A stretch of 64,000 bases of DNA from an uncultured Eubacteriales bacterium (GTDB lineage: Bacteria; Bacillota; Clostridia; Lachnospirales; Lachnospiraceae), in contig URND01000002.1 in the NCBI GenBank assembly GCA_900549105.1, positions 3,581-67,580 of the forward strand. Direction: 5' to 3'. The translations under genes were made by a program, and so were the position numbers. Below are positions 3,975 through 53,164 of the stretch, piece after piece (position 1 is the stretch's first letter; each line of letters starts with the position of its first letter). Below the pieces are notes generated by a model that was not told the origin of the DNA, searched no databases, and was given only the letters and a program-made list of their open reading frames with translations.

Positions 3975-5471
3975 ATGAAAAAGTATAAAAGATTAATGCT
4001 GTTTTTTGTGTGTATGTGTTTTGCGGCCTTTAGCCTGTCTGCATGTAAAAAGTCAATGGAGACAGAAGCCAACGAAGCGAAGGAAACGCATGAAAAAGAA
4101 ACAGTGGAAAGTGAAATGCAAGAAAAAGAAACGGCGGAGTCTGAAAAAGAATCAGTGCCGGAAACGGAAGGGTCAGAGGAATCGGCGATTCAGTCACCTT
4201 CGGTATGCGGCAGTCTTTCTGTTGAAGGAACACAGCTTGTGGGCGAGCATGGCGAGGCTGTTCAGTTAAGGGGATTGAGTACTCATGGGATTGCCAGTTT
4301 TCCGCAGTATGTCAATGAAGAACTTTTTGGAGAGTTCCGCCGGGAGTGGAAAGCCAATATCATCCGCTTGGCCATGTATACGGCAGAATCCGGGGGCTAT
4401 TGCACAGATGGGGATAAGGAGTATTTGAAAGATTTAGTCCGAAACGGTGTGAAGTATGCCACCAGCCAGGACATGTATGTTATTGTTGACTGGCATATTT
4501 TGTCAGATAATAATCCAAATATGCATAAAGATGAGGCTATAGATTTTTTTGCGCAGATGTCCAAAGAATTTTCCGGGCATAACAATGTCATTTATGAAAT
4601 CTGTAATGAACCAAACGGCGGTACTTCCTGGGAAGAAATCAAGTCCTATGCTCAGGAGGTTATACCGGTGATTCGCGCCAATGCGCCGGATGCGGTGATT
4701 TTGGTGGGAACCCCGAATTGGTCCCAATATGTTAATGAAGCGGCGGCAAACCCGATTACCGGCTATGAAAATATTATGTATACGCTGCATTTTTATGCGG
4801 CTACGCATACCGATGATTTGCGCAGCACCATGACAGCGGCCATTGATGCGGCGCTTCCGGTATTTGTATCAGAGTATGGCATCTGTGACGCCAGCGGCAA
4901 CGGAAATATCGATGAGGCACAGGCAAATGCCTGGGTGCAGGTACTGAATCAATATAATGTTAGTTATATAGCATGGAATATTTCCAATAAAAATGAAACA
5001 TCGGCGATTATTAAAAGTACAGTGGAAAAAACCAGCGGATTTTCCTGGGAGGATTTAAGCGCTTCCGGCCAATGGCTTTACCAGGTTTTAACAAATGAAA
5101 AGGGGAGTGCCTTGGAGGAGGAGGCAGGCCCTGTTCAGAGCAGCAGCCTGGATACGGTCACAAAAAGCGGCGACATGGAGGTCCTGGGGACCCAGGTCAA
5201 ACATTGGGAGTCCAATGGCCAGCAATTTTATCAATATGATTTGACTATAAAAAATACTTCAGGACAGCCGTGCCAGAGTTGGGCGGTGGACGTGAAGTTC
5301 AACAGCGATATCTCTTTGTCTGACAGTTGGAATGGGCAGTATTCTGCCGAGGGAGATACGCTGCATATTTCTTCAATGGATTATAACGGAAATCTCTCCG
5401 CAGGCGGCAGCACGGGCGATGTGGGATTTATTGTCAGCGGCGCAGCGGGGCTGGAGATTTTAGATAATTAA
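3975..5471 (+). CDS. GH5 endoglucanase (cellulase) lipoprotein with a Glu-rich linker and a C-terminal carbohydrate-binding-like module
   Basis: An RBS (GGAGGAG) precedes the ATG at 3975. There is a signal peptide with lipobox 'LSAC'. The catalytic motifs are 'NVIYEICNEPNG' (acid/base NEP) and 'VFVSEYG' (nucleophile). The C-terminal ~100 aa form a Trp/Gly-rich beta module. Confidence 0.85.
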   Translation: MKKYKRLMLFFVCMCFAAFSLSACKKSMETEANEAKETHEKETVESEMQEKETAESEKESVPETEGSEESAIQSPSVCGSLSVEGTQLVGEHGEAVQLRGLSTHGIASFPQYVNEELFGEFRREWKANIIRLAMYTAESGGYCTDGDKEYLKDLVRNGVKYATSQDMYVIVDWHILSDNNPNMHKDEAIDFFAQMSKEFSGHNNVIYEICNEPNGGTSWEEIKSYAQEVIPVIRANAPDAVILVGTPNWSQYVNEAAANPITGYENIMYTLHFYAATHTDDLRSTMTAAIDAALPVFVSEYGICDASGNGNIDEAQANAWVQVLNQYNVSYIAWNISNKNETSAIIKSTVEKTSGFSWEDLSASGQWLYQVLTNEKGSALEEEAGPVQSSSLDTVTKSGDMEVLGTQVKHWESNGQQFYQYDLTIKNTSGQPCQSWAVDVKFNSDISLSDSWNGQYSAEGDTLHISSMDYNGNLSAGGSTGDVGFIVSGAAGLEILDN

Positions 5472-38175: not shown

Positions 38176-38267
38176 ATTGTAGAATGTACAACTTTATAAT
38201 CGCTTCATATATAATTGATAAATAGTTTTTTGTCTAAAATAGAGATAAAAATTTGGGAGGAATTAAA

Positions 38268-40295
38268 ATGATACTACCGTTAAGTGTAAAAAATCAAAGT
38301 ATAGAGTCGTCTGGGATTACGAATGACTATAAGGAAGCTATATGTGAATATATATGGAATGGTCTTGAAGCTCATGCGACAGAAATTAATATTAATTTTA
38401 GTCATAATATTGCCTATGGTATTGATAACCTCTCAATTTCAGATAATGGTGATGGGATTAGTTATGAGGAATTAGGAGATACATTTGGGGCATTTTTGGC
38501 TTCAAAGAAGAATCTTATGTCTTTGAAAATGAAATCTAAAGCGAATAAAGGAAAAGGACGATTTTCTTTTATGGCATTTGCATGTAGTGCAAAATGGACT
38601 ACGGTATATAATGATGGTAAAGAATTAAAAACATATGATATTATTTTGGAAAATGACAAAAAGGAAGTAATAATTTGTACGGAGCCAACAACGTCAATAG
38701 AAAGAAACACAGGTACTAAAGTATTTTTTAGTAATATTTATTCTTTGACAACAGAGAACATGGCTTTTGATGTACTTGAGCCTGTATTACTAAAAGAATT
38801 TGCATGGTTTTTATATTTATTCAAAAATCGAAATATAAGTATTTGTGTAGATGGAACACCTATTAATTATGGAAAATATATTAATACTGAGTTAAGCGAG
38901 AAAGTATCAAAAATAATTGATAATATCAGATTTGAAATTAATTTAGTTGTATGGCAAGAATCTATAAAAGAAAAATTTTGTTGTTATTATTTTGATAGTA
39001 CTGATATTGTAAGGGGTAGAGAAACTACGACATTTAATAGAAATACTATTGATTTTAATCATAGTGTTTTTGTAAAGTCTGAATTTTTTGATGAGAAAGA
39101 TGATATAGAAAAACAATTGGACGCTTTGCAAATTAGTTTGTTTGAATCAGAGGATGACAAAAAAACATTTAAAAAATTAAAAAAATTTATATCTTCTTTT
39201 ATCGAAAAAAAGATTGGAACATATATGTCACAAAGAGCAGAAAAGGCAATAAAAGAGATGATGGAGGAAAGAAAAACCTTTCCGACATTTTCCGATGATG
39301 CTTATGGGAGGATGAGAAAGCAAGACTTAGTAAAGATTACAGAAGAAATATATAAGATTGAACCTAAAATATTTTATAAACTTAAACCTATTCAGGAAAA
39401 ATCTTTGCTTGGATTCTTAAATTTGCTTTTAAATTCTGAGGAAAGAGAGAATGTATTATCAATAATTGAACAAATCGTTGAATTGTCGCCAGAGCAAAGG
39501 CAGGATTTTTCAGATATGTTGAAAAAAACTAAATTGGAAAATATTATAGAGTCTATAAAATTTATAGAGGGTAGATACAAAGTTATAGAACTGCTGAAAA
39601 CTATAGTATACGATTTGACGCAATTTGCTAATGAAAGAGATCATATTCAGAAAATTGTAGAACAACATTTTTGGCTTTTTGGAGAACAATATAATCTTGC
39701 CAGTGCCGATCAGCAGATGAAAAAGGCATTAGAGAAATACATCAATATTTTATATGGAGAAAACGACATTAATGCAACATTAAAGGAGGATGTTGAACAA
39801 GAGCGAAGAATGGATATTTTTATGTGTAATTCAAGAGAAGTCGAGAATTCATTTGAAACAGTGTTAGAAGAGAATATCATTGTAGAATTAAAAGCGCCAA
39901 AAGTTTCGTTATCAAAAAAGGTTTTAAGGCAAGTTGAAGATTATATGGATTTTATAAGAAAACAACCAGACTTTAATAGCGAGTACAGACGGTGGAAATT
40001 TATTGCTGTATGCAGACGAGTTGATGAAGATATAAAAAGTCGTTATGAAACCTTTAAAGATAAAGGAAAAATAGGATTAGTAGTACAAGTAGAAAATTAT
40101 GAAGTGTATGCATACACATGGGACGATGTATTTAAAAGTTTTGAACTAAGACATGCCCCAATTTTGAAGCGGTTAAAATATGACAGAGAACAGTTGGCAA
40201 AAGAACTTATGGATGAAGTTGCATCGGATGAGGGGCGTGGTAAAGTAGATGCTTTAACAGACATAGCGGTATCAACTATTTCAAACGTACAATAA
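38268..40295 (+). CDS. GHKL (histidine-kinase/MORC-type) ATPase fused to a C-terminal PD-(D/E)xK-like nuclease domain
   Basis: GGGAGG lies 8 nt upstream of the ATG at 38268. The N-box-like motif is 'EAICEYIWNGLEAHATEININF', the G1 box is 'ISDNGDGIS' and the G2-like motif is 'GKGRFSFMAF'. The C-terminal 'RMDIFMC...IIVELKAPK' gives a D...E-x-K pattern. Confidence 0.55.
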   Translation: MILPLSVKNQSIESSGITNDYKEAICEYIWNGLEAHATEININFSHNIAYGIDNLSISDNGDGISYEELGDTFGAFLASKKNLMSLKMKSKANKGKGRFSFMAFACSAKWTTVYNDGKELKTYDIILENDKKEVIICTEPTTSIERNTGTKVFFSNIYSLTTENMAFDVLEPVLLKEFAWFLYLFKNRNISICVDGTPINYGKYINTELSEKVSKIIDNIRFEINLVVWQESIKEKFCCYYFDSTDIVRGRETTTFNRNTIDFNHSVFVKSEFFDEKDDIEKQLDALQISLFESEDDKKTFKKLKKFISSFIEKKIGTYMSQRAEKAIKEMMEERKTFPTFSDDAYGRMRKQDLVKITEEIYKIEPKIFYKLKPIQEKSLLGFLNLLLNSEERENVLSIIEQIVELSPEQRQDFSDMLKKTKLENIIESIKFIEGRYKVIELLKTIVYDLTQFANERDHIQKIVEQHFWLFGEQYNLASADQQMKKALEKYINILYGENDINATLKEDVEQERRMDIFMCNSREVENSFETVLEENIIVELKAPKVSLSKKVLRQVEDYMDFIRKQPDFNSEYRRWKFIAVCRRVDEDIKSRYETFKDKGKIGLVVQVENYEVYAYTWDDVFKSFELRHAPILKRLKYDREQLAKELMDEVASDEGRGKVDALTDIAVSTISNVQ

Positions 40296-42097: not shown

Positions 42098-42523
42098 GTG
42101 AGTAATCGTAAGGCAGCTTTTTCGGCAGAAAGCTATACCCTTTCGGGCATTCCGCATGTCAGATGCTTCGCATGGGCGCGCTGCGTCAGGCTTCGCGCGA
42201 TAAGGTATGATAAAGATATTTTAAATACTATACCGTATTATGATAAAGCTTATAATCAGATAGCAGATGTGGTTTCAGCTGCATTTTCAAATAAGGCAGT
42301 ATCTTGGCTGGATATAGGCTGTGGGACTGGCAAAATGGCAAAAGTGGCATTTGAACAATGCAATGTGGAAAAGATGATTTGTACGGATAATTCATCTGTT
42401 ATGTTAAAGGTTGCAAGACAGAAAATCAGTTTTCCCAGTGTAGAATTTTTAAAACTTCCAGTAGAAGAAATAAACTATGATTCGCAATTTGATGTAATTA
42501 CTTCTATCTTGGTGAATCACTAG
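42098..42523 (+). pseudogene. class I SAM methyltransferase, C-terminally truncated, with copy 1 of a 66-bp repeat embedded in its 5' end
   Basis: Motif I 'LDIGCGTGK' is present. The ORF ends at '...ILVNH' before the usual post-IV motifs, and the downstream frame is broken by several stops. Confidence 0.45.
42142..42207 (+). repeat. 66-bp GC-rich repeat, copy 1
   Basis: ttcgggcattccgcatgtcagatgcttcgcatgggcgcgctgcgtcaggcttcgcgcgataaggtat. It is about 91% identical to copy 2 at 47176-47241 in the same orientation. Confidence 0.8.
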
Positions 42524-42752
42524 ATGACATTTGAGCAGATACAATACAGAATATTTTCCAATAACAATACAAGAACAAATTAAGATTCTAAGAGATTGTG
42601 GCTTTATGAATGTAGAGATTTTTTGGTGTTCATATATGCAGGTTGGAATTTTAGCAATATGACGAATATGGAAATGTGCAAGGTATGTATTCAGTAAATT
42701 CAGGTATGCAAGAATGAAAAAATAGAGTAAAATAAAGAAAAGTGTGCAGAGA

Positions 42753-44046
42753 GATGATAGATTTGAATATGGAGTTGCGATTGGCAGATAATTCTGCCAT
42801 TGTATCAGAAATAGTAGAAAAAACAATCAAAACTATATATCCCCATTATTACCCGGCAGGTGCAGTGCAGTTTTTTCTTGATTTGCACTGCAAAGAGAGG
42901 ATTGAAGAGGCGATGACTTCCGAAGAAATCTATCTTGTGTTGGTACAGGAAAAACTGATAGGTACTGGGAGTATTCGGAAGAATGAGATTTGCAGATTAT
43001 TTATTTTGCCTGAGTATCAGGGAAAGGGCTATGGAAGCAGATTGATGGATTTGCTGGAAGCAAGGATTTTTGAGAATTATCCAAAGGTTCATGTGGCCGC
43101 TTCTTTTCCGGCGGAAAGTATGTATTTGAAACGGGGATATCAGATTGTATCCTACGAAAAAATTGAAGCAGAAAACGGAGATTTCCTTTGCTATCATATT
43201 ATGGAGAAAAGAAACGGGGAAGGAAGCTGTTTGTATGGAAAAGGGCCTGTAAAGGAGAGCGGTATGGTTAGAAAACACGGAAAAGAGCCATATAATATTG
43301 TGGTTTTGCATGGCGGGCCGGGAGCAGCAGGCTCAGCCTTTGGACTTGCAAGGCTGATTTCAAAAGAGTTTGGCGTCCTTGAGCCGATGCAGTCAAAATA
43401 TACGATTGAGGAGCTGGAAGAAGAGTTAATGGAGCAAATTGAAGAGAGTTGCGCTGGAAAAGTTATTTTGGCAGGACATTCCTGGGGCGCATGGCTGGCA
43501 GGATTATTTGCAGAAAGATTTCCGGATAAAGTGGAAAAAGTAATTTTGATTGGCAGCGGTCCTTTGGATGAATATTATGTTCCTCAAATCGGAGAACGCA
43601 GAAAAGAAAATATGTCATCAGAGGAAGCGGAAGAATTTGAAAAGATTCTGCGGCAGTTAGAGAACGGTTTTGGAGAGAAGGATGAATACCTGCAGCGATT
43701 AGGTGAAATATGTGATAAAGCAGACGGATATCATGAAGAGGAAGCTTTGAGGGATAAGGCAGACGTAAACGGAGATTTGTACGAAAAGGTTTGGAAGGAA
43801 GCTGCAGAGTTACGGAAATCCGGAAAACTGCTGGAAAGGCTTGGAAGGATTTCCTGCCCGATGGTGCTGATTCAAGGAGCGGTTGACCCACATCCGGCGG
43901 CGGGGGTTATTGAACCATTAAAAGCTCTTAATGTGGACATAAAATCATATGTACTTGATAAATGCGGTCATACTCCGTGGAGAGAAAAATATGCCAGAGA
44001 AGAATTTGCGAGGGTTTTGTTTTCTGAATTACGGGCCGGAAAATGA
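42753..44046 (+). CDS. GNAT N-acetyltransferase fused to an alpha/beta-hydrolase domain
   Basis: The GNAT motif A is 'ICRLFILPEYQGKGYGSRLMDLLE'. The hydrolase nucleophile elbow is 'LAGHSWGAWLAG' (GxSxG). Confidence 0.65.
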
Positions 44047-44137
44047 ATAGCGGCTATTCCGGATATTGATGAACTGGGAATTATAAATCCGCATATATTA
44101 TATAGAGATTCAATAAAATAATAAGGTATGCAGGAAA

Positions 44138-45058
44138 ATGAAAGAATATGTAGTAATATCCCTGGAAACACATTTATTTTTTGCCAGAATTATGAGGGAG
44201 CATGCGTTGTTTCTTCTGGCTGCCTTTCCGGCAGGGGAAGTGGAATATAGAAAACAGGCGGATTGGTTTCGAGAACAGTTTGAAAAAGTATTAGGGCATA
44301 CGGTAGGGCTTGCCAATGGAATAGCAGGCAAAGATGTACTGGGTTCCGGCGAAGTGTTCACTGAATTTACGGAAATGGCGGAGCAGCAGACAAGAAGGTT
44401 GACCAGGATTCCGATTAATATTCGGATTACGCAGGCGGAACAGAGATTGCGAGCCGGCGATGGAATCGGTTGTCAGAACAGAAGAATGGTACAGCAGGTG
44501 CGTCTCCTAAATCAGAGAGCCCTGTATCTGATGGATGGATTGATTGCATTTAAAGAGAAAATCTTGCAGGAGATTGGGGCCTGTCATCTGTATACAGCGA
44601 ATTATCCGCTGTTGATTGAGCATATTCTGCGGGAGGCAAAATTATATCGGCAGATTATAACTGAACTGGAAGAAAAGGGATGTATGCCGCCAAAAAATTT
44701 GAAAGAGGCAGAATTGTTCTGGAATCAGATTATGATGGAACATGCCATGTTTATTCGTGGGCTGCTTGACCCGACAGAATGTGAGCTTATGAAAACAGCA
44801 GATGATTTTGTCGGTGACTATTGTCGTTTATTGGAAGAGGCGAGAAAACAGGATTGCCGTACGCTAGATGCATTGACAAGAAAAACGCTGGAAACGACGG
44901 AACAGTATCGCGACTTTAAAGCGGCAGGTACGGAAGAAATTACAGGCTGCGGCATACGTTCCATTATTCTGCCATTGCTGGCAGACCACGTGCTCCGGGA
45001 AGCCAATCATTATCTGCGCATCCTTAAAACAGAGGGTGGCAACGGAGAATGGACTTAA
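44138..45058 (+). CDS. DUF2935-like protein (repeated 'E-H-A-L/M-F' helical motifs), function unknown
   Basis: The recurring motifs 'IMREHALFL', 'IMMEHAMFIRGL' and 'LADHVLREANHY' are as I recall for DUF2935. There are no catalytic motifs. Confidence 0.45.
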   Translation: MKEYVVISLETHLFFARIMREHALFLLAAFPAGEVEYRKQADWFREQFEKVLGHTVGLANGIAGKDVLGSGEVFTEFTEMAEQQTRRLTRIPINIRITQAEQRLRAGDGIGCQNRRMVQQVRLLNQRALYLMDGLIAFKEKILQEIGACHLYTANYPLLIEHILREAKLYRQIITELEEKGCMPPKNLKEAELFWNQIMMEHAMFIRGLLDPTECELMKTADDFVGDYCRLLEEARKQDCRTLDALTRKTLETTEQYRDFKAAGTEEITGCGIRSIILPLLADHVLREANHYLRILKTEGGNGEWT

Positions 45059-45186
45059 TATTCTGCCAGGTGAATATGTGAAGAAAAAATTTATCCCCCA
45101 CTTTATTACCTGCCTGCGTTATAATAGGTAATAAGGTGGGTAAATATATGTCTGAAATGAAAATGCACGCGTGATGCAAGGAGGAT

Positions 45187-45591
45187 ATGCTTATGCAAAA
45201 GAGAAAGAATGATTTGAATTTTGATAAATTTATAAAATTCCCGATGCCTGAGAAAATATTTAACGGTCCAAAAATAAAAGTCAGAGAAGATGGGCAGGTT
45301 TTCATCAGTCCATCGGTGATTAAAATGATAAAGGAAAATAACGAGGAGATGTGGGTGGATTCTCGGTACTCGGAGGATTATAAAACCATCGCCATAAAAC
45401 TGGATGGGGACAAGAGTTTCAGGTTTCCGAGAGGCGGTGCGATGAAGTTTAAGAAATGGAAAGAGATTCTCCAAAAGTTTGGTTATTCGATACCGGCTGT
45501 GTACTGGCTGGAATGGAATCCGGAAGAAAATCTCTGGATTGGCCGGCTTCAGGAAGTATCCGAATCTCCGGATATCGGGAGAATGGGATGA
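45187..45591 (+). CDS. hypothetical protein (134 aa)
   Basis: The ORF has an ATGA stop/start overlap with the next gene at 45588, indicating translational coupling. Confidence 0.4.
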   Translation: MLMQKRKNDLNFDKFIKFPMPEKIFNGPKIKVREDGQVFISPSVIKMIKENNEEMWVDSRYSEDYKTIAIKLDGDKSFRFPRGGAMKFKKWKEILQKFGYSIPAVYWLEWNPEENLWIGRLQEVSESPDIGRMG

Positions 45592-46112
45592 TAAAACGGC
45601 AGAAGGAGATGTCGGATTATGAATATACACAGCTGGACAAAATGGTATACCAGTTATACTTAGTTTATGGAAAAGGTTTGGAATTTGATGAATGTCGAAG
45701 TATTGCCTTTCTGAAATATGTTGAAGTGAGGAATGAACTGGATAACTTTTATAATGAGGATTTGCTGTGGATATATTCCCAAAATCGGATTATTGATGCC
45801 TTTAAGGATGAGCGGAGAAAAAGAAATGATAAGATTCGTTTAGAGGCAAAATTATCTTTGAATCAATTTATTGGAGATTCCGATGAGCCGGTTTATACTA
45901 TTTTATTTCCTGTTCGTGGGAACTTTGTTAATCATGTGTGCTTATGGAATGATATGAGACGATTTGGAAAAAGGTGCTATAAGATTTTATCTGCCCTGTA
46001 CTGGGGCGATGAGGACTGGGAGATTGTAGACGGGTTGAAAATATCTGCGAAGGAATACTTTGAAATGAAAAATTATCTTAGAATAAAATTGAAAGAGTAT
46101 GTGGAAATATGA
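45588..46112 (+). CDS. small sigma-70-family-like protein (ECF/TcdR-sized, regions 2 and 4)
   Basis: 'LLWIYSQNRIIDAFKDERRKRN' is region-2.2-like. 'CYKILSALYWGDEDWEIVDGLKISAKEYFEMKNYLRIKLKE' is a region-4-like HTH. The protein is 175 aa and coupled to both the upstream and downstream genes. Confidence 0.4.
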   Translation: MIKRQKEMSDYEYTQLDKMVYQLYLVYGKGLEFDECRSIAFLKYVEVRNELDNFYNEDLLWIYSQNRIIDAFKDERRKRNDKIRLEAKLSLNQFIGDSDEPVYTILFPVRGNFVNHVCLWNDMRRFGKRCYKILSALYWGDEDWEIVDGLKISAKEYFEMKNYLRIKLKEYVEI

Positions 46113-47590
46113 GGAAGATAACAAAGAGAAGTATCCGGGATGAAGATATTGATATCGGGCGGATTTCGAAGCGCTTGGAAGAAATTGCGGCTGCAATTAA
46201 AATGAATAATAAGAATAATCTGACGGATATAAATGTCATTTGTGAAGAGATTTTTGGCCGGATTTTGGATAGATTGTATGATATCCATCTTGTGTCACTG
46301 TCCGCAAAAGTATCAGGGAATTTTATAGCAGTGGATTTGATTGATTACGAAAACAGAATCGCATTTCAGGTGACATCAAGGGATGATAGAGAAAAGATAG
46401 AGAAAACGATTGAAAAGTTTAATGGTTCTGATTTAATTGGGTATATCGATACTCTGAATATTCTTGTTTTAAATTCCAATATTCATCATTATAGAGAGCC
46501 GGATATTGTCCGCCTGGAAAATGGAAAAGAATTTTCCTATTCGAAAAACATTTTGAATTTTAACAAACTGATTGAAGAGATAGCTAAGAAAAATGTTGAG
46601 AAAAACGGATTTATTGTGGACGTATATGATATCATCAATATGGTATATGATTCCGGGCGGCTGCGTTATTTCAGTATAAACAGGAAAACGGAAATGCTGA
46701 TGCAGACGGAGAGTGATGACTTCGGTGATGTCAGATTGTGGAAGAAAGGGTACGGCGATATTCAACTGACAGCCTATATCCCACTGTCTTATGAGGAAGA
46801 GATATGCTGTATGATGGAAAATCGCCAGCATAATATATCCGGCGTGTATCCTACATTTAATCAGGATAAGCTGCTTGAAGATTATTTTGTTTCGGAAGAA
46901 GAATTTGAAAATAAGCATAATGTCGGCCGATTTGAGGATGAAGAAGAGATTTTTATGCAGATTGAAAACATGCGTATATGTGTCAATGCGCATACGGCCC
47001 ATCATATCTACAAATTATTTGAAGAATTAAAAGACGAGTATATCGCGGCTCAGAATCAAATCGCTTCTGTTCTGGGAGTCGAAGGGCTGAAAAAAGTAGG
47101 AAAAAAGTACCTGCTTATGACCATCGATGGGACGGCATGGAAGGAAATATTGTTTTTTGCGAAAAATCATGCCCATTCGGGCACCCCGCATGTCAGATGC
47201 TCCGCATGGGCGCGCTTCGTCAAGCTCCGCGCGATAAGGTATAGTTGTTTCAAGGAAGATGGCGAAGAGGAATGGAATATATTTAATAATTGCACGGGAG
47301 ACAGAGTTACATTGTCCTTGAATGTCTATGGAAAAATTCGCGGGGATATATTGGCAGAAATCTCTGTTGATTTATCGGAATTTGAGAATGATAAGTTGAA
47401 TTTGTATTGGAGTCCGGGGTACAAGTTTGATACAAATTGTATGGATTGTTTTGACAATGTTGTCAAATGGAAGGCGGATTATACGAAAGAGTGGATTGAA
47501 AACAAACTGTTAAAAAAGGCCCATGATTTTTGGGTCGAATATCATAAAAGAAATTCGGGATGGAGAAGATTATTTGGTGTAAAGGAGTGA
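46109..47590 (+). CDS. hypothetical 493-aa protein with an N-terminal conflict-system-like domain; copy 2 of the 66-bp repeat lies in its 3' third
   Basis: Its start overlaps the sigma-like gene (ATGA). The N-terminal ~110 aa 'INVICEEIFGRILDRLYDIHLVSLSAKVSGNFIAVDLIDYENRIAFQVTSRDDREKIEKTIEKF' resemble, by uncertain recall, the SMEK-type N-terminal domains described in NTP-dependent conflict systems. Confidence 0.4.
   Translation: MRKITKRSIRDEDIDIGRISKRLEEIAAAIKMNNKNNLTDINVICEEIFGRILDRLYDIHLVSLSAKVSGNFIAVDLIDYENRIAFQVTSRDDREKIEKTIEKFNGSDLIGYIDTLNILVLNSNIHHYREPDIVRLENGKEFSYSKNILNFNKLIEEIAKKNVEKNGFIVDVYDIINMVYDSGRLRYFSINRKTEMLMQTESDDFGDVRLWKKGYGDIQLTAYIPLSYEEEICCMMENRQHNISGVYPTFNQDKLLEDYFVSEEEFENKHNVGRFEDEEEIFMQIENMRICVNAHTAHHIYKLFEELKDEYIAAQNQIASVLGVEGLKKVGKKYLLMTIDGTAWKEILFFAKNHAHSGTPHVRCSAWARFVKLRAIRYSCFKEDGEEEWNIFNNCTGDRVTLSLNVYGKIRGDILAEISVDLSEFENDKLNLYWSPGYKFDTNCMDCFDNVVKWKADYTKEWIENKLLKKAHDFWVEYHKRNSGWRRLFGVKE
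47176..47241 (+). repeat. 66-bp GC-rich repeat, copy 2
   Basis: ttcgggcaccccgcatgtcagatgctccgcatgggcgcgcttcgtcaagctccgcgcgataaggtat. It is read in the same frame as copy 1 (..PHVRC.AWAR.V.LRAIRY). Confidence 0.8.
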
Positions 47591-47594
47591 TATC

Positions 47595-48626
47595 ATGTTG
47601 GCCTATACTTATATTGAAAAGGGAAAATTTGAATTGCGGGAGAAACCAAAGCCGGAGCTGCAGAATGAGAAGGATGCTATTGTCAGGATAACCCTTGCCA
47701 GTATCTGTACAAGCGATTTACATATTAAGCACGGTTCAGTTCCAAGAGCTGTACCGGGGGTGACCGTGGGGCATGAGATGGTAGGCATCGTGGAGACCGT
47801 GGGGGATGCGGTAAAAACAGTAAAGCCGGGAGACAGGGTCACTATAAATGTGGAAACATTTTGCGGAGAATGTTTTTTCTGTAAAAACGGTTATGTAAAT
47901 AATTGTACCGATTCCGATGGCGGATGGGCGTTGGGCTGCCGTATTGACGGCGGACAGGCGGAGTATGTCCGTGTGCCTTATGCAGACCAGGGATTAAACC
48001 GGATACCGGATAGTGTGACGGATGAACAGGCATTATTTGTCGGAGACATTCTTGCTACAGGATTTTGGGCGGCTCGGATATCTGAAATTAAACCGGAGGA
48101 TACGGTGCTTATTATCGGTGCGGGTCCTACCGGAATATGTACCTTATTGTGCGTGATGCTGAAAAAGCCGAAACGGATTATCGTATGCGAGAAAGATAAA
48201 GTTCGGAGAGAATTTGTACAGAAATATTATCCGGAGGTAAGTGTTGTTGAGCCGGAGCAGCTTCAGCAATTTGTAAAAGAAAACAGCGATCACGGCGGAG
48301 CGGATGTGATACTGGAGGTTGCCGGGGCAAAAGATACTTTCAGGATGGCATGGGAAAATGCAAGACCCAATGCCATTGTGACTGTTGTGGCCTTGTATGA
48401 CGAGGCGCAGATATTGCCGCTGCCGGATATGTATGGGAAAAATCTGACTTTCAAAACGGGCGGTGTCGATGGCTGTGACTGCGAAGAAATACTTCGGCTG
48501 ATTGAGGAAGGAAAAATTGATACAACGCCTTTGATTACCCATACATATCCTCTTGAGCATATTGCAGAAGCCTATGATTTGTTTGAAAACAGGCGGGACA
48601 ATGTTATCAAAGTGGCTATTAAATAA
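47595..48626 (+). CDS. Zn-dependent alcohol dehydrogenase (MDR superfamily)
   Basis: The catalytic Zn motif is 'GHEMVGIVETVGDAV', the structural Zn motif is 'CGECFFCKNGYVNNC' and the Rossmann motif is 'IIGAGPTG'. Confidence 0.85.
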   Translation: MLAYTYIEKGKFELREKPKPELQNEKDAIVRITLASICTSDLHIKHGSVPRAVPGVTVGHEMVGIVETVGDAVKTVKPGDRVTINVETFCGECFFCKNGYVNNCTDSDGGWALGCRIDGGQAEYVRVPYADQGLNRIPDSVTDEQALFVGDILATGFWAARISEIKPEDTVLIIGAGPTGICTLLCVMLKKPKRIIVCEKDKVRREFVQKYYPEVSVVEPEQLQQFVKENSDHGGADVILEVAGAKDTFRMAWENARPNAIVTVVALYDEAQILPLPDMYGKNLTFKTGGVDGCDCEEILRLIEEGKIDTTPLITHTYPLEHIAEAYDLFENRRDNVIKVAIK

Positions 48627-48634
48627 AATTTTTC

Positions 48635-49096
48635 TTAATTTAGAAGCCAGATGAAAAAGTTTAAGTACCCTGCAAAGGCTACCCATAGCAGGTATGGCAG
48701 CATCAGATATTCGGTTGATTTTGATATTTGACGAAAGAGAACGGTTGTTTTGAGAATCAGCAGCCACAGTAAAATGAGCCAGATAAATGCAAACAGGTAC
48801 AGCTTCAGATTGAAAAAGATAATCGGCCAGAAAAAATTAAATACAAGCTGAATACCGTATGCAGTCAAAGCAGCGGTGTGTGGTTTCCCGGATGTAAGCA
48901 CCAGATAGGATGCGATTCCCATAAGGATATATAGAATCGTCCATACCACAGGGAACAGCCAGCCGGGAGGGGCCAGAAACGGTTTATTAAGAGATTCAAA
49001 CATTTCCATGTTGTTTCGGGTTAAAAGTGCAGATAAGCCTCCGATTGCGAGCGGTATGGCAAGACAGGCAATCAGGTTTTTCCATTGAATTTTCAA
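48635..49096 (-). CDS. TspO/MBR-family (tryptophan-rich sensory) membrane protein
   Basis: 153 aa with five transmembrane helices and a Trp-rich sequence 'PPGWLFPVVWTILY', convergent with the alcohol dehydrogenase gene. Confidence 0.8.
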   Translation of the reverse strand: MKIQWKNLIACLAIPLAIGGLSALLTRNNMEMFESLNKPFLAPPGWLFPVVWTILYILMGIASYLVLTSGKPHTAALTAYGIQLVFNFFWPIIFFNLKLYLFAFIWLILLWLLILKTTVLFRQISKSTEYLMLPYLLWVAFAGYLNFFIWLLN

Positions 49097-49241
49097 AAAA
49101 TCACCCCTTACTACTGTTATGATTCAGGAGGACTTTTTATTCTATTTTTATTTAGGCTATTATTTAAAGCAAGGACGATTAACAAGATTTATTGGGTGGC
49201 AAAGTAATATTTTGACAAGAGAATGAGGAGAAATTGAGAAT

Positions 49242-52200
49242 ATGGGATTTTTAAACAGGATTTTTGGTTATAAAAAAGTAAAAATGGATAATTCTCCAAA
49301 GGATTCTATTATATCGGAAAATTCCATTCCTAAGAATGAAAATGTTATCAAATTGATTGAACTGAAATCTTTTATTGGTTCTTTAATGGATGCTGACAGG
49401 TATATTGCAAAGAGTGAATATAATGAAGAAGTAAAGAACTGCTCTGATGTCATTTCATTTTTTAATGTATTGAAAAGCAGCGGAATGTTGGATAAGTTTT
49501 GCCAGCTTAATGGCATTTCTCTGGCCGAAATTGAAGATACTTTATATTGTTATGAAAATATAGAAAAGCAGATGGCGCAGCATAATGATGATTTTGTTGT
49601 GAGGACCATGGTTAGGGAGAAGTTTTACCTGGATAATGTTTTGAAAGCAGTTGACCCGGTAATTTCTTTGGATGAAGACCAGAGAAGGGTGATTTTAACG
49701 GATGAAGATTATTGTTTAGTTATTGCAGGTGCAGGTGCCGGAAAGACAACAACCGTTGCTGCAAAGGTAAAATATCTTGTGGATAAGCAGGAGGTTAAAC
49801 CTTCGCAGATTCTTGTCGTTTCATATACAAATAAAGCGGTAAATGAGCTGAAGGAAAAGATACATGGCGCCTTAAAAATTGAGTGCCCGATTGCAACATT
49901 TCATTCTGTGGGAAATACTATCATACATGCGAATACACCGGATGTACAGTTGAAAATTGTTGAAGATTATAGATTATATTTTGTAATCAGAGATTATTTT
50001 CGAGGTTCTCTTATGCGGAAAGAGAGCGTTGTCAATAAACTGATTATGTTTTTTGCTTCCTATTTTGATGCACCGTATGAGGGTGACGATTTAAATGGAT
50101 TCTTCAATAATATTGCGAAAGCAAATTATTCAACGATGAGAAGCGACCTGGAAGATTTTAAGCGTGAAGTCATTGATGCAAGAACGAAGAAGTCAGTCAC
50201 CATTCGAAATGAGGTTTTGAGGTCTCATCAGGAGGTGGAGATTGCAAATTTTCTTTATCTTAACAACATTGATTATGAGTATGAGCCTATTTATCCGTAT
50301 AATATGCCATATGCCCGGAAACCATATACGCCGGATTTTGTCATCTATCAGGATGGCAGGAGCGCCTATATAGAACATTTTGGAATATCGGAAAATGGAC
50401 AAAACGACATATATTGCCAGGAAGAATTGGACCGATATAAAAAGGCGGTAAATGATAAAGTAAAGTTACATAAGCAGCATGGAACGACATTGATTTATAC
50501 ATTTTCATCATATAATGACAAAAAACCGTTGTTAGTTCATCTTCGCGAGGAGATGGAGGAAAAAGGCTTCGAACTTAAACAAAGGTCAGATAAAGAAGTA
50601 ATGGAAATGTTGGTCGCAGGAGAAGAGAACCGATATGTCCGTAAGTTAGTCAATCTTATCTGCCGGTTTATTTCTAATTTCAAAGTCAATGGATATACGG
50701 AGGAGGAGTTTAGCCGCATGTATCATTCTACCCAGAATGTACGGAGCAGACTGTTTTTGGATATTTGTAATGATTGTTATCTGGAGTATGAAAGATGGTT
50801 GAAAGAGAACAGCGCGGTTGACTTTGAAGATATGATTAATGAATCTGCCAAAATTCTCAAAGAAGTAAAAGAAATGAAGCAGAAACTGGATTATAAGTAC
50901 ATTATCGTGGATGAGTATCAGGATATTTCCAGACAGCGATTTGACCTTGTTAAGGCATTGTCTGAAGTGACAAATGCAAAGATTATTGCGGTTGGCGATG
51001 ACTGGCAGTCTATTTATGCCTTCAGCGGTTCGGATATTACTCTTTTCACTAAATTTAAGGAGAAGATGGGCTATGCCAGGATGCTGAAGATTGTAAAGAC
51101 TTATAGAAATTCTCAGGATGTCATAGATATTGCCGGGAACTTTATACAGCGTAATACGGAACAGATTCCTAAACAGTTGATTTCAGATAAGAGAATAGAG
51201 AATCCTGTGATTATATATACATATGATAGTACATTAAAAAGCAGAGATGGAAGTCGTAGAAACGGAGCAAATTATGCGTTGGCGCGTGCGGTAGAAACGG
51301 CGTTAGCCCAACTCCTGGAGTATAAGAAAAAAGAAAATAAAGAGCCGGGACCGATTTTATTGCTGGGAAGATTTGGCTTCGATGGAGATAATCTGGAAAG
51401 GTCAGGCTTGTTTGAATATATAAATCGGGGAAATAAAGTGAAGAGTGTTAAATATCCGAAATTGGATATTACCTTTATGACGGCCCATTCATCTAAGGGG
51501 TTGGGATATGATGATGTTATTATTGTGAATGGAAAAAATGAAACTTATGGATTTCCGTCAAAAATTGAAGATGACCCGGTTTTGGCTTTTGTGATTAAAG
51601 GGGACAGGTCTATTGATTATGCGGAAGAGAGAAGATTATTCTATGTTGCTATGACGAGAACAAAGAATAGAGTTTTCCTGATTGCACCGGAGAAAAATCC
51701 ATCAGAGTTTCTGCTTGAATTAAAGAGGGATTATAAGAATGTTATCCTATGTGGGGAGTGGAATGATGAAAACATTTCAACCACATTGAAGAAGTCATGC
51801 CCTCTTTGCGGATTTCCGATGCAGCTTAAATATAAAAGAGCATACGGTTTGCGGCTTTATATATGTACGAATGAGCCGGAGATTTGTGGGTTTATGACTA
51901 ATGATTATCGCTCTGGCAAGATGTCGATTCAAAAATGTGATAAATGTCAGGATGGATATCTGATTGTAAAACAGGGACAGAATAAAGATTTCTTTCTGGG
52001 ATGTACGAATTATAAAGCAGATGGAAGTGGATGTGGGAAGATGGTCAGCAAGAAGGCTTTTTATGAGCAGATGGGATATGAGACAGAGGGACCCGCAGTC
52101 AGACAGGATATCAGGACTCAGGGAAAAATCGAGGGAAAGTCCCGGAAAGTGGTTTTAGATATCGAAAGAAAGCCTGTTGTCAGTGAAGAACTTAAAGATG

Positions 52201-52610
52201 ACTATATCGAAGTTGTGCGTGCGGATGTAAAACCGGTGATGTATGGAAAATATGATGTGAATGATTTGATCTATATGGTAATAAAAATACTTCAGGATAT
52301 CAGCAGAGACAGGTTTTACGGTGTAACAGTACTTGCTGATGTGCTGAAGGGAGTGACCAGTAAACAAATATTGGATGATAAATTGGATGAGATACCTGAA
52401 TTTGGCTTTTTAAAGGATATGCCCTGGGAAACAATTCAGGCAGTTATTGAGTGGATGATATATGAGCATTTGATTTTGAAGACAAAGGGAAGGTATCCGG
52501 TGCTGCATTCAACCTATGAAGGTTTACATTATTCAGAAATCATTACGCAAAATAAACTCAAAAAGCTTAAGAAATATTTAGAGGAAGAGGTGGTTCTATG
52601 GAATCCGTAG
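49242..52610 (+). CDS. UvrD/Rep-family SF1 helicase with an inserted PD-(D/E)xK-like module, C-terminal topoisomerase-type zinc ribbons and an RQC-like winged helix
   Basis: Walker A is 'AGAGAGKTTT', motif II is 'IIVDEYQDISR', motif III is 'IAVGDDWQSIYAFSG' and the motif VI region is 'FYVAMTRTKNRV'. The insert is 'EVEIANFLYLNNIDYEYEP...YTPDFVIYQDGRSAYIEHFG'. The Cys ribbons are 'CPLCGF...C', 'CDKCQDG' and 'CTNYKADGSGC'. The C-terminal region 'GVTVLADVLKG...YPVLHST' resembles the RecQ RQC winged helix. Confidence 0.75.
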   Translation: MGFLNRIFGYKKVKMDNSPKDSIISENSIPKNENVIKLIELKSFIGSLMDADRYIAKSEYNEEVKNCSDVISFFNVLKSSGMLDKFCQLNGISLAEIEDTLYCYENIEKQMAQHNDDFVVRTMVREKFYLDNVLKAVDPVISLDEDQRRVILTDEDYCLVIAGAGAGKTTTVAAKVKYLVDKQEVKPSQILVVSYTNKAVNELKEKIHGALKIECPIATFHSVGNTIIHANTPDVQLKIVEDYRLYFVIRDYFRGSLMRKESVVNKLIMFFASYFDAPYEGDDLNGFFNNIAKANYSTMRSDLEDFKREVIDARTKKSVTIRNEVLRSHQEVEIANFLYLNNIDYEYEPIYPYNMPYARKPYTPDFVIYQDGRSAYIEHFGISENGQNDIYCQEELDRYKKAVNDKVKLHKQHGTTLIYTFSSYNDKKPLLVHLREEMEEKGFELKQRSDKEVMEMLVAGEENRYVRKLVNLICRFISNFKVNGYTEEEFSRMYHSTQNVRSRLFLDICNDCYLEYERWLKENSAVDFEDMINESAKILKEVKEMKQKLDYKYIIVDEYQDISRQRFDLVKALSEVTNAKIIAVGDDWQSIYAFSGSDITLFTKFKEKMGYARMLKIVKTYRNSQDVIDIAGNFIQRNTEQIPKQLISDKRIENPVIIYTYDSTLKSRDGSRRNGANYALARAVETALAQLLEYKKKENKEPGPILLLGRFGFDGDNLERSGLFEYINRGNKVKSVKYPKLDITFMTAHSSKGLGYDDVIIVNGKNETYGFPSKIEDDPVLAFVIKGDRSIDYAEERRLFYVAMTRTKNRVFLIAPEKNPSEFLLELKRDYKNVILCGEWNDENISTTLKKSCPLCGFPMQLKYKRAYGLRLYICTNEPEICGFMTNDYRSGKMSIQKCDKCQDGYLIVKQGQNKDFFLGCTNYKADGSGCGKMVSKKAFYEQMGYETEGPAVRQDIRTQGKIEGKSRKVVLDIERKPVVSEELKDDYIEVVRADVKPVMYGKYDVNDLIYMVIKILQDISRDRFYGVTVLADVLKGVTSKQILDDKLDEIPEFGFLKDMPWETIQAVIEWMIYEHLILKTKGRYPVLHSTYEGLHYSEIITQNKLKKLKKYLEEEVVLWNP

Positions 52611-53164
52611 ATATGAAAAAACTTGAGACAGCCATTCTGTATTTACAGAGAATTGCCGATGGGCATAATCCGGTGAACAATATGCCGGCGGATGATGATG
52701 CGGTGCTTAACAATCCAAATGTGATTCGCTGCATGTATTTTGTAAAAGAGATACTGGAAGAAGTGAAGCGCAACAATGGTTATATTGGAAAGAAAGCAAG
52801 AAAAATCGACAAACCGAATTTTCCGCTGGAGGCACTGTCTTCATTTATGTATAAGGAAGATAAATCGATATCCAAGCTGGTAGCGCAGATGAATGAACTG
52901 ATTGATGAAAATGTTTATCAGAAACTGTCTTATAAACCGATTGTGCAGTGGCTTAAACAGAATGGTTTTCTGACAGAGGAATTTAGTCAGGAATTAAATA
53001 AAATATGTACCATGCCTACGGAAAAGGGTAGTCAGTTGGGGATTAGGGCTGAAAGAAAAACCAGTTTCAAGGGTGTGGACTATATGATTATTCTGTACGG
53101 CCGGCAGGCTCAGGAGTATATTGTAAAAAACATGGAGACGATTCTTAGCAGTGCGGAAGCGTGA
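52598..53164 (+). CDS. hypothetical protein (188 aa) overlapping the helicase 3' end
   Basis: The 13-nt overlap with the helicase stop suggests co-translation. No recognisable motifs. Confidence 0.4.
   Translation: MESVDMKKLETAILYLQRIADGHNPVNNMPADDDAVLNNPNVIRCMYFVKEILEEVKRNNGYIGKKARKIDKPNFPLEALSSFMYKEDKSISKLVAQMNELIDENVYQKLSYKPIVQWLKQNGFLTEEFSQELNKICTMPTEKGSQLGIRAERKTSFKGVDYMIILYGRQAQEYIVKNMETILSSAEA

What the first reader, a model, noticed from the sequence alone, without database searches (positions are those of the whole stretch)
45187..47590. Translationally coupled three-gene unit: hypothetical gene, small sigma-like factor and a 493-aa protein with a conflict-system-like N-terminal domain
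ATGA overlaps lie at 45588 and 46109. The 175-aa middle protein has a sigma-70 region-4-like HTH ('ILSALYWGDEDWEIVDGLKISAKEYFEMKNYLRIKLKE') and a region-2.2-like segment. The downstream 493-aa protein begins with a ~110-aa domain ('INVICEEIFGRILDRLYDIHLVSLSAKVSGNFIAVDLIDYENRIAFQVTSRDDREKIEKTIEKF') that I tentatively associate with SMEK-type N-terminal domains from NTP-dependent conflict systems. A small alternative sigma factor coupled to such a protein could be a dedicated transcriptional arm of an immunity or bacteriocin-like module, as with TcdR/UviA-type sigma factors in Clostridia.
Basis: partly seen in the sequence, partly recalled or inferred. Interest (0 to 1): 0.55.

Follow-up and report, generated by a model that had tools for sequence, protein, structure and literature searches.

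The report
Sigma-like controller pair plus SMEK nuclease
Three overlapping genes in a gut Lachnospiraceae chromosome join a predicted Mrr-like ('SMEK') defence nuclease to a conserved two-gene module, one member of which looks like a very divergent sigma factor; in other bacteria the same module sits in front of several different anti-phage genes.

Summary
Three real genes (45193-45591, 45588-46112, 46109-47590) are joined by ATGA overlaps.

- **ORF3.** Its N-terminus is a clear SMEK_N domain (Pfam E 2.8e-33). It matches the solved 'Mrr domain' of the Kordia jejudonensis short-Argonaute partner (E 1.3e-26). This domain is a nuclease-type effector also reported in short pAgo and short Lamassu systems. 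The roughly 300-aa C-terminal domain has no known relative.
- **ORF2.** It passes no Pfam or NCBIfam sigma model. A 49-member family profile hits sigma region 2 (FliA E 4.5e-4; hhalign E 9.6e-4). The top named Foldseek matches of its AlphaFold model are mostly sigma factors in both libraries. I read it as probably a very divergent sigma-70-like protein.
- **Co-conservation is split.** The triad exists only in Frisingicoccus relatives, and ORF3 homologs elsewhere stand alone. ORF1-ORF2 is a conserved overlapping pair in about 10 contexts, with a variable gene downstream: SMEK nuclease, Shedu SduA, PADLOC candidate PDC-S56, a TIR-model hit, unknowns, or nothing.

My best reading is a new sigma-like 'controller' pair driving an adjacent defence nuclease. 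Regulation itself is inferred, not shown. The finding is moderately interesting.

The parts
45178..45184 (+). Shine-Dalgarno AAGGAGG for ORF1, 8 nt upstream of ATG 45193
   Evidence: Read directly from the sequence. The 132-aa homologs start at the equivalent ATG.
45193..45591 (+). ORF1, 132 aa (alternative start 45187). Small partner protein of unknown fold. It is always encoded directly upstream of, and overlapping, an ORF2-family gene.
   Evidence: No Pfam, NCBIfam, PADLOC, PHROG or PDB-sequence hit. Homologs at 21-89% identity lie upstream of ORF2 homologs in L002, L040, L041, L039/L050, L043, L051, L054, L055, L058 and L065; the small genes upstream in L061 and L064 were not aligned.
45588..46112 (+). 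ORF2, 174 aa. Divergent sigma-70-like two-domain protein: an N-terminal helical region-2-like domain and a C-terminal HTH region-4-like domain.
   Evidence: The family has 82 representatives among 1.84 billion clusters. Its profile hits FliA at 4.5e-4, SigH at 3.4e-3 and SigA at 0.02 over region 2. Two of 49 members hit Pfam Sigma70_r2 at 9.7e-6. hhalign against FliA/RpoS/RpoH gives E 9.6e-4. The AF2 model has pLDDT 77, and sigma factors dominate its top Foldseek hits in PDB and BFVD.
46109..47590 (+). ORF3, 493 aa. SMEK-domain protein: an N-terminal Mrr-like nuclease effector plus a family-specific C-terminal domain.
46160..46582 (+). SMEK_N (Mrr-like PD-(D/E)xK-type) domain, ORF3 residues 18-158. 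Invariant residues are E46, D76, Q87, T89 and K96.
   Evidence: Pfam PF21941 at 115 bits against a cut-off of 27. PDB 'Mrr domain from Kordia jejudonensis Mrr-APAZ pAgo' at E 1.3e-26. Invariant columns in 52 homologs.
46676..47587 (+). C-terminal alpha/beta domain of ORF3 (about residues 190-493). No recognised family; presumed sensor or regulatory part.
   Evidence: The AF2 model is confident (mean pLDDT 83, pTM 0.81). Foldseek hits in PDB are all weak (sliding clamps and p32, TM 0.07-0.12). There is no Pfam or PDB-sequence hit.
47170..47244 (+). 75-nt GC-rich MITE-like repeat inserted in frame in ORF3. It adds 24 aa in a loop and has short terminal inverted repeats (ATACC...GGTAT in other copies).
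   Evidence: AF2 pLDDT is about 30 over residues 357-384. A second copy lies at window 42119-42208.
46060..46089 (+). Promoter-like site (TTGAAA-18-TAAAAT) inside the 3' end of ORF2, about 20 nt upstream of ORF3. It is a consensus match only.
   Evidence: The number of such sites in the region is not above the shuffle expectation.

Best explanation
**ORF3.** ORF3 is a self-contained defence-type protein. Its N-terminal SMEK (Mrr-like, PD-(D/E)xK-type) domain is the effector and presumably cuts DNA. Its unique C-terminal domain of about 300 aa presumably holds the effector off until a signal is sensed. Close and distant homologs function as single genes in defence-island-like neighbourhoods.

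**ORF1-ORF2.** In this Frisingicoccus-type chromosome the ORF3 gene has been captured behind a conserved two-gene module. ORF2 is a very divergent sigma-70-like protein with sigma-2-like and sigma-4-like domains. ORF1 is its obligate, translationally coupled partner of unknown fold, possibly an anti-sigma or co-factor.

**Proposed mechanism.** The pair acts as a portable 'controller' that sets transcription of whatever gene lies behind it. Here that is the SMEK nuclease; elsewhere it is Shedu SduA, the PADLOC candidate PDC-S56, a protein hitting a TIR-effector model, or unknown proteins.

**Shown versus inferred.** The gene structure, the domain identities, the conservation of the pair and the variability of the downstream gene are shown. 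Sigma function, the role of ORF1, regulation of ORF3 and anti-phage activity are inferred.
For: - **Gene structure:** ATGA overlaps at both junctions.
- **SMEK domain:** SMEK_N E 2.8e-33. PDB Mrr domain of the KjAgo partner E 1.3e-26. PADLOC pAgo-associated REase model E 1.3e-27.
- **SMEK in the literature:** it is described as a nuclease effector in short pAgo and short Lamassu systems (PMC10810196, PMC12205087, bioRxiv 10.1101/2023.06.08.544223, PMC12663957).
- **Stand-alone ORF3 homologs:** they lie next to KAP-NTPase/QueC-like/TatD genes, PIN7+AAA_21 genes and a Schlafen-AlbA gene.
- **Sigma-like evidence for ORF2:**
- **ORF1-ORF2 pair:** it is conserved and overlapping in about 10 independent contexts.
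- **Downstream genes:** these include SduA (PADLOC 1.4e-126, Pfam SduA_C 4.9e-18), PDC-S56 (4e-236) and a TIR-effector model hit (6e-11).
- **Junction in L039/L050:** the same 4-nt ORF2/downstream overlap joins ORF2 to a different gene.
- **Precedents:** two-gene regulators placed before diverse immune operons are known (CapK/CapS, CapH/CapP, CapW: PMC13373217). So is an ECF sigma/anti-sigma pair controlling a defence island (DdvS/DdvA: PMC11506125).
Against: - ORF2 itself matches no sigma model in Pfam or NCBIfam.
- hhalign probability is only 22%. The family profile does not find a genuine ECF sigma in L006. All Foldseek E-values are 0.004 or higher.
- No conserved promoter motif was found upstream of the pair.
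- In two contexts (L061/62, L065) no same-strand gene follows the pair. L042 lacks ORF1.
- Most ORF3 homologs do without the pair.
- ORF3 lies in the same operon as its presumed regulator, so a sigma would have to act at the promoter upstream of ORF1. That region is not conserved between contexts.
- An alcohol dehydrogenase gene follows ORF3 by 4 nt and may be co-transcribed.
- No experiment bears on any function.
Confidence: 0.5

Rival explanations
1. Protein-level system. ORF1 and ORF2 are not transcription factors. They are the sensing subunits of a multi-protein defence complex with exchangeable effectors (SMEK nuclease, SduA, TIR-like, membrane protein), as pAgo/APAZ or LmuB do for their effectors. 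The sigma-like fold would be used to bind RNAP or DNA as an infection sensor.
For: The downstream gene is swapped at a precise 4-nt overlap junction. Effector-type diversity is typical of abortive-infection systems. SMEK is a swappable effector in pAgo and Lamassu systems (PMC10810196, PMC12663957).
Against: SMEK-CTD and SduA homologs occur as complete single-gene units without the pair. Gaps of 236-309 nt separate the pair from the next gene in L055 and L064, and there is no downstream gene in L061 and L065. No interaction data exist.
Confidence: 0.15
2. Coincidental adjacency. ORF1-ORF2 is an independent small regulatory or selfish module that tends to land in variable, island-like regions. 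It has no functional link to ORF3. The overlaps reflect compaction after insertion.
For: The triad is restricted to Frisingicoccus relatives. The pair occurs with unrelated or no downstream genes. L001 keeps a 5'-truncated ORF3 without the pair. The region has low GC and is variable.
Against: The ATGA coupling is conserved between lineages in which ORF2 is only 80% identical (L002/L040 against the window). Recognised defence proteins lie downstream in 4 of about 10 contexts, which is more than expected for arbitrary genes. This was not tested statistically.
Confidence: 0.2
3. Toxin-antitoxin-like arrangement. ORF2 is an HTH DNA-binding protein rather than a sigma factor. With ORF1 it represses the operon and/or neutralises the ORF3 nuclease.
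For: The ORF2 C-terminal region also matches an ArsR-type HTH repressor (E 1e-3). The genes are small and overlapping and sit upstream of a nuclease.
Against: ORF3 homologs are maintained alone in many genomes, so the nuclease is not intrinsically toxic. The N-terminal domain consistently aligns to sigma region 2, not to antitoxin folds.
Confidence: 0.1

Closest known systems
SMEK / Mrr-like effector domain of short prokaryotic Argonaute partners (K. jejudonensis SMEK-APAZ, S2B-clade nuclease effectors) and of short Lamassu LmuA
   Same: The N-terminal 160 aa are homologous, at E 1.3e-26 to the solved Kj domain. They share the conserved DiN..E, D, QxT and K positions. The domain sits at the N-terminus of a larger protein as an effector.
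   Different: There is no APAZ domain, no pAgo and no LmuB/SMC neighbour. The C-terminal 300 aa form a family-specific domain with no known relative. The protein is a single-gene unit restricted to Clostridia in the searches made.
'Cap' controllers of adjacent pathways (CapW; CapH+CapP; CapK+CapS), PMC13373217
   Same: A small conserved regulator module, here two overlapping genes, is encoded directly upstream of diverse and otherwise unrelated immune genes.
   Different: There is no sequence or fold relationship: the known controllers use WYL-HTH, protease or STAS-kinase proteins, whereas this one is sigma-like. Here the regulator is translationally fused into the same operon instead of being separated by a regulated promoter. 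Regulation has not been shown.
DdvS/DdvA ECF sigma / anti-sigma pair controlling a CBASS-CRISPR island in Myxococcus (PMC11506125)
   Same: It is a dedicated small sigma-type factor with a partner protein, associated with defence genes.
   Different: DdvS is a bona fide ECF sigma recognised by standard models. ORF2 is not. ORF1 is not a transmembrane anti-sigma and lies upstream of the sigma-like gene.
TcdR/UviA/BotR/TetR group-5 sigma factors of Clostridia
   Same: It is a small alternative sigma-like protein in a Clostridia genome next to a potentially harmful protein.
   Different: No toxin, bacteriocin or holin genes are present. No direct similarity was tested. ORF2 fails the Sigma70_r2 and Sigma70_r4 models; from general knowledge, group-5 sigma factors usually match these at least weakly.
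Shedu (SduA)
   Same: It is another single-protein PD-(D/E)xK-type defence nuclease. In L058/L059 an SduA gene occupies the position behind the ORF1-ORF2 pair that ORF3 occupies here.
   Different: ORF3 has no SduA_C domain, so the relation is positional and not homologous.

Membership tests
SMEK_N domain proteins (Pfam PF21941 / NCBIfam NF033859) | Match to the family HMM above the curated cut-off | tested here: met
   Pfam 115.2 bits against 27. NCBIfam 79.4 bits against 30.
SMEK_N domain proteins (Pfam PF21941 / NCBIfam NF033859) | Homology to the structurally solved Mrr-like domain, with conservation of the acidic, Q-x-T and K positions | tested here: met
   PDB Kj Mrr domain at E 1.3e-26 over residues 17-174. 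E46, D76, Q87, T89 and K96 are invariant in 52 homologs.
SMEK_N domain proteins (Pfam PF21941 / NCBIfam NF033859) | Nuclease activity | not testable with these tools
   Only weak collateral DNase activity is reported, for the KjAgo complex (cited in PMC12205087).
Short pAgo nuclease systems (SMEK-APAZ + pAgo) | APAZ domain fused to the effector, and an adjacent short pAgo (MID-PIWI) gene | tested here: not met
   The PADLOC Aga_REase model matches only model positions 9-164 of 463. No other Pfam domain is found in ORF3. The neighbours are ORF2 and an alcohol dehydrogenase.
Short Lamassu (LmuA with SMEK effector + LmuB) | Adjacent SMC-like LmuB gene and an LmuA C-terminal domain | tested here: not met
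   There is no SMC-like gene next to ORF3 in the window or in L002-L007. There is no PADLOC Lamassu hit.
Sigma-70 family | Match to Sigma70_r2 and Sigma70_r4 (or an NCBIfam sigma model) above the curated cut-off | tested here: not met
   ORF2 has 0 families at E <= 1 in Pfam and NCBIfam. Only 2 of 49 relatives hit Sigma70_r2, best E 9.7e-6.
Sigma-70 family | Profile-level homology of the N-terminal domain to region 2 and of the C-terminal HTH to region 4, in collinear order | tested here: inconclusive
   Family profile against PDB: FliA 4.5e-4, SigH 3.4e-3, SigA 0.02. hhalign against FliA/RpoS/RpoH: E 9.6e-4, probability 22%. Against RpoE+ECF: E 0.064, collinear from region 2 to region 4. No hit to the ECF sigma of L006.
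Sigma-70 family | Sigma-2 / sigma-4 two-domain fold | tested here: inconclusive
   The AF2 model has pLDDT 77. Nearly all of the top 50 PDB hits, and most named BFVD hits, are sigma factors. However, E is 0.004-0.6 and TM 0.25-0.40.
Sigma-70 family | Binds RNAP core and directs promoter-specific initiation | not testable with these tools
   No conserved promoter motif was found upstream of the pair.
TcdR/UviA-type (group 5) sigma factors | Located beside toxin, bacteriocin or holin genes that it activates | tested here: not met
   The neighbours are DUF2935, ORF1, a SMEK protein and an alcohol dehydrogenase. No similarity search against group-5 members was run.
'Controller of adjacent pathways'-type regulator modules | The same regulator module recurs directly upstream of diverse, unrelated immune genes | tested here: inconclusive
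   Recognised defence proteins lie downstream in 4 of about 10 contexts: SMEK, SduA, PDC-S56 and a TIR-model hit. The others are unknown proteins or have none. The sample is small and there is no statistical control.
'Controller of adjacent pathways'-type regulator modules | Regulates transcription of the adjacent gene in response to a signal | not testable with these tools
   -

The most novel reading that the evidence does not exclude
ORF1-ORF2 defines a previously undescribed, portable sigma-like 'controller' (or RNAP-monitoring sensor) module of Firmicutes. It is plugged in front of interchangeable defence effectors (SMEK nuclease, Shedu, PDC-S56, TIR-like and membrane proteins). In other words, a dedicated mini-sigma factor and its partner switch on, or directly license, abortive-infection effectors when phage interferes with host transcription.
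Probability: 0.2. Interest if true: 0.8.

Novelty: new variant of a known kind. Interest (0 to 1): 0.5.

Why it matters
How toxic single-gene defence nucleases are kept silent and then switched on is an open question. Only a few dedicated regulator modules are known (CapW, CapH/P, CapK/S, and one ECF sigma pair).

A conserved sigma-like two-gene module that recurs in front of Shedu, SMEK and other candidate defence genes would add a new class of regulator. It would also give a concrete, testable handle: RNAP binding, the promoter and the inducing signal.

Separately, the finding defines a stand-alone SMEK + C-terminal-domain protein family in Clostridia. This family is a candidate single-gene defence system with an unexplored sensor domain.

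Tried and rejected
- **ORF2 and relatives:** Pfam, NCBIfam, PADLOC and PHROG scans gave nothing. For ORF1, ORF2 and ORF3, all three were scanned against Pfam, NCBIfam, PADLOC and PHROGs; ORF1 and ORF2 gave nothing, and ORF3 gave only its SMEK/pAgo-REase hits.
- **ORF2 in mobile elements:** tblastn of ORF2 against 72,556 plasmids and 50,697 phages found no match. A viral-contig scan also found none.
- **ORF2 against genuine sigma factors:** hhalign of the family against a single genuine ECF sigma found nothing. hmmsearch of the family profile against all ORFs of the fetched loci did not find the genuine ECF sigma of L006 either.
- **ORF1:** profiles against PDB sequences and Pfam gave nothing meaningful. 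My impression from reading the sequence that ORF1 resembles an AbrB/SpoVT-type domain has no support from these searches, and I drop it.
- **L039 downstream proteins:** the 203-aa and 618-aa proteins show no similarity to ORF3 and no Pfam or PADLOC hit.
- **ORF3 fold:** Foldseek of the full ORF3 model gave only sliding-clamp and p32 matches with TM 0.07-0.12. I regard these as unreliable.
- **Promoter search:** a shared promoter motif upstream of ORF1 in 11 loci was not found; no k-mer exceeded the shuffles. A TGCGAA hexamer at -57 to -64 in 3 loci is a post hoc observation only.
- **The 75-nt repeat:** it has no Rfam match and no stable fold.
- **Technical limit:** alignment A4 was too divergent for the search for related loci.
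Full report
**Observation.** The window carries three + strand ORFs at 45187/45193-45591, 45588-46112 and 46109-47590. The sequence shows ATGA stop/start overlaps at 45588-45591 and 46109-46112. ORF1 probably starts at ATG 45193. The AAGGAGG at 45178-45184 is 8 nt upstream of that codon, and the homologs are 132 aa. ORF2 is 174 aa. All three have homologs in other assemblies, so they are genuine genes.

The unit is not closed downstream. A zinc alcohol dehydrogenase gene begins 4 nt after the ORF3 stop, and no + strand terminator-like site was found in 44000-49300. GC content falls to 0.29-0.44 between about 37 and 53 kb, against 0.45-0.51 in the flanks. The best relatives are annotated Frisingicoccus sp. 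or uncultured Lachnospiraceae.

**ORF3.** Residues 18-158 match Pfam SMEK_N (E 2.8e-33, 115 bits against a cut-off of 27). They also match NCBIfam SMEK_N (1.4e-22) and a PADLOC pAgo-associated REase model (1.3e-27, N-terminal part of the model only). A 52-member family profile matches the solved 'Mrr domain from Kordia jejudonensis Mrr-APAZ pAgo' at E 1.3e-26 over residues 17-174. The acidic, Q-x-T and Lys positions are conserved: E46, D76, Q87, T89 and K96 are invariant.

The literature describes SMEK as an Mrr-like nuclease effector. It is fused to APAZ in short Argonaute systems and to LmuA in short Lamassu (PMC10810196, PMC12205087, bioRxiv 10.1101/2023.06.08.544223, PMC12663957).

The remaining 300 aa or so fold confidently in AlphaFold (mean pLDDT 83, pTM 0.81). 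They have no Pfam or PDB-sequence relative. Their structural matches are unreliable (sliding clamps and p32, TM 0.07-0.12).

About 90 clusters share this SMEK+CTD architecture. All identified ones are from Clostridia: Frisingicoccus, Clostridium and Paraclostridium.

**ORF2.** ORF2 itself hits nothing in Pfam, NCBIfam, PADLOC or PHROGs. An exhaustive HMMER search found a small family: 82 representatives at E <= 1e-3 among 1.84 billion clusters, mostly 160-175 aa. The evidence for a sigma relationship is as follows.
- A profile of 49 members hits sigma factors first in the PDB sequence set: FliA 4.5e-4, SigH 3.4e-3 and many SigA at 0.02-0.1. All align ORF2 residues about 13-82 to region 2.
- Two of 49 members hit Pfam Sigma70_r2, best E 9.7e-6.
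- hhalign against E. coli FliA/RpoS/RpoH gives E 9.6e-4 (probability 22%) over region 2.
- hhalign against RpoE plus a Paraclostridium ECF sigma gives a weak (E 0.064) but collinear alignment from region 2 to the region-4 HTH.
- The AlphaFold model (pLDDT 77) has three long N-terminal helices, a poorly predicted hairpin and a C-terminal four-helix HTH unit.
- Nearly all of its top 50 Foldseek hits in the PDB are sigma factors. So are most named hits in BFVD, which include phage sigma factors and RpoE-like proteins with probability up to 0.95. However, E is 0.004 or higher and TM is 0.25-0.40.

My conclusion is that ORF2 is probably a very divergent sigma-70-like protein. It fails the formal family models.

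**ORF1.** No relative was detected in any library. Its homologs were recovered only through gene context.

**Co-conservation.** The full triad, with both overlaps, occurs in L041 (ORF2 97% identical) and in L002/L040 (ORF2 80%, ORF1 88-89%, ORF3 93%). All are Frisingicoccus-type contigs.

ORF3 homologs at 50-60% identity stand alone, without ORF1 or ORF2. Their neighbours include:
- a Schlafen/AlbA_2-HATPase_c_4-HTH gene (L003);
- PIN7 + AAA_21 (L004);
- KAP NTPase + QueC-like + TatD, which from general knowledge resembles QatABCD (L005);
- an ordinary ECF sigma + DUF4179 pair (L006).

L001 retains a 5'-truncated ORF3 next to the same dehydrogenase but has no ORF1 or ORF2.

In contrast, ORF1-ORF2 is a conserved pair. 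An ORF1 homolog (21-89% identity, alignment A10), or in L061/62 and L064 a small overlapping gene of about 146-151 aa that was not aligned, lies directly upstream of and overlapping an ORF2 homolog. This holds in about 10 independent contexts; only L042 lacks it.

What follows the pair varies:

| Context | Gene(s) after the pair |
|---|---|
| Window, L041, L002/L040 | SMEK+CTD |
| L039/L050 | 203-213-aa and 618-aa unknown proteins, joined by the same 4-nt overlap |
| L042/L043 | A membrane protein of about 210 aa |
| L051-53 | 161 aa + an M48-peptidase-like membrane protein + a protein matching PADLOC candidate PDC-S56 (E 4e-236) |
| L055-57 | A 262-aa protein hitting a PADLOC TIR-effector model (6e-11), after a 309-nt gap |
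| L058/59 | A full-length Shedu SduA (PADLOC 1.4e-126; Pfam SduA_C 4.9e-18) |
| L064 | A 167-aa unknown protein |
| L061/62, L065 | Nothing on the same strand |

Several of these loci sit among other defence genes: Lamassu-like SMC+Cap4 nuclease, AbiE, GmrSD and ParE.

**Interpretation.** ORF3 is best read as a single-protein, defence-type nuclease made of a SMEK effector plus a private sensor domain. The ORF1-ORF2 pair behaves like a portable controller placed in front of different effector genes. This is analogous in logic to the Cap regulators (PMC13373217) and to the DdvS/DdvA sigma/anti-sigma pair (PMC11506125), but it is unrelated to them in sequence.

I consider transcriptional control by a sigma-like factor the most likely mechanism (about 0.5). 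The rivals are a protein-level sensor complex with swappable effectors, coincidental adjacency in a variable island, and a TA-like repressor or antitoxin.

Several points count against the favoured model:
- sigma membership is below threshold;
- no conserved promoter lies upstream of the pair;
- some contexts have no downstream gene;
- ORF3 lies in the same operon as its presumed regulator.

**Side observation.** ORF3 carries a 75-nt GC-rich, MITE-like repeat inserted in frame (47170-47244, +24 aa). It falls in a loop that AlphaFold leaves disordered (pLDDT about 30). The repeat is absent from the 469-aa relatives and tandemly doubled in a 517-aa Frisingicoccus protein. Other copies lie in a methyltransferase gene (window 42119-42208) and in an intergenic region of L001. 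It has no Rfam match and no stable fold.

**Verdict.** The SMEK protein is a new member of a known effector family with a novel architecture. The sigma-like ORF1-ORF2 pair recurring before different defence genes is the more original element, but it rests on about 10 contexts and on sub-threshold homology.

Noticed in passing
window 47170-47244 and 42119-42208; also L001 about 4085-4150, and inside the ORF3 homologs of L002, L040 and L001: A GC-rich dispersed repeat of about 75 nt with short terminal inverted repeats (ATACC...GGTAT). It inserts in frame into coding sequence: +24 aa in ORF3, 0/1/2 copies among near-identical alleles, and also inside an intact 246-aa methyltransferase in L041. 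It resembles Rickettsia-palindromic-element-style in-frame MITEs. It has no Rfam hit and no stable fold.
   Followed up: partly
window 42098-42760: The SAM-methyltransferase gene is a pseudogene here. Relative to the intact 246-aa gene in L041 it has a TAT->TAG stop near 42521 and a deletion of about 176 nt.
   Followed up: yes
window 38253-40295: A 680-aa protein with an N-terminal HATPase_c_3 (GHKL/MORC-like) domain and weak C-terminal PD-(D/E)xK / HSDR_N_2 hits. It is a possible defence-type ATPase-nuclease in the lowest-GC part of the window.
   Followed up: no
window 49242-52610: A 1122-aa UvrD-type helicase with strong PADLOC GajB and DRT-helicase model hits. In L041 the ortholog has Zn-ribbon and RQC domains. 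It is followed by an overlapping 188-aa gene of unknown function at 52598-53164.
   Followed up: no
L006 4092-5654 (Paraclostridium bifermentans): A bona fide ECF sigma (Sigma70_r2 and r4_2) plus a DUF4179 anti-sigma-like protein lies about 335 nt upstream of the stand-alone ORF3 homolog. This is probably coincidental, but it is a second sigma-type neighbour of a SMEK+CTD gene.
   Followed up: no
P0065, P0084, P0088, P0089 (Logan contigs): Apparent chimeras. The ORF3-type C-terminal domain is fused to an N-terminal P-loop protein, or the SMEK_N domain is fused to an OLD-type ATPase/TOPRIM protein, with abrupt junctions at near-identity to normal family members. They may be real recombinants in defence islands or assembly artefacts.
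   Followed up: no
L050 -58, L051 -57, L061 -64 relative to the ORF1 start: The hexamer TGCGAA(T) lies at a similar distance upstream of ORF1 in three unrelated contexts. In each it is followed 23 nt later by a TAnnnT -10-like hexamer. It is absent from the window and is not significant in a k-mer test.
   Followed up: partly
L001 1-3042: In an uncultured Lachnospiraceae MAG, the 95%-identical ORF3 lacks its first 17 or more codons. It abuts unrelated lipoprotein genes, with no ORF1 or ORF2, while keeping the downstream dehydrogenase. This is evidence of decay or rearrangement of the locus.
   Followed up: partly
L042 6575-7846 and L043 6480-7877: Downstream of the ORF2 homolog, a conserved membrane protein of about 210 aa abuts a GMP-synthase ATP-pyrophosphatase fragment. 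In L042 the two are fused into one ORF. This suggests the module inserted into or next to guaA.
   Followed up: no
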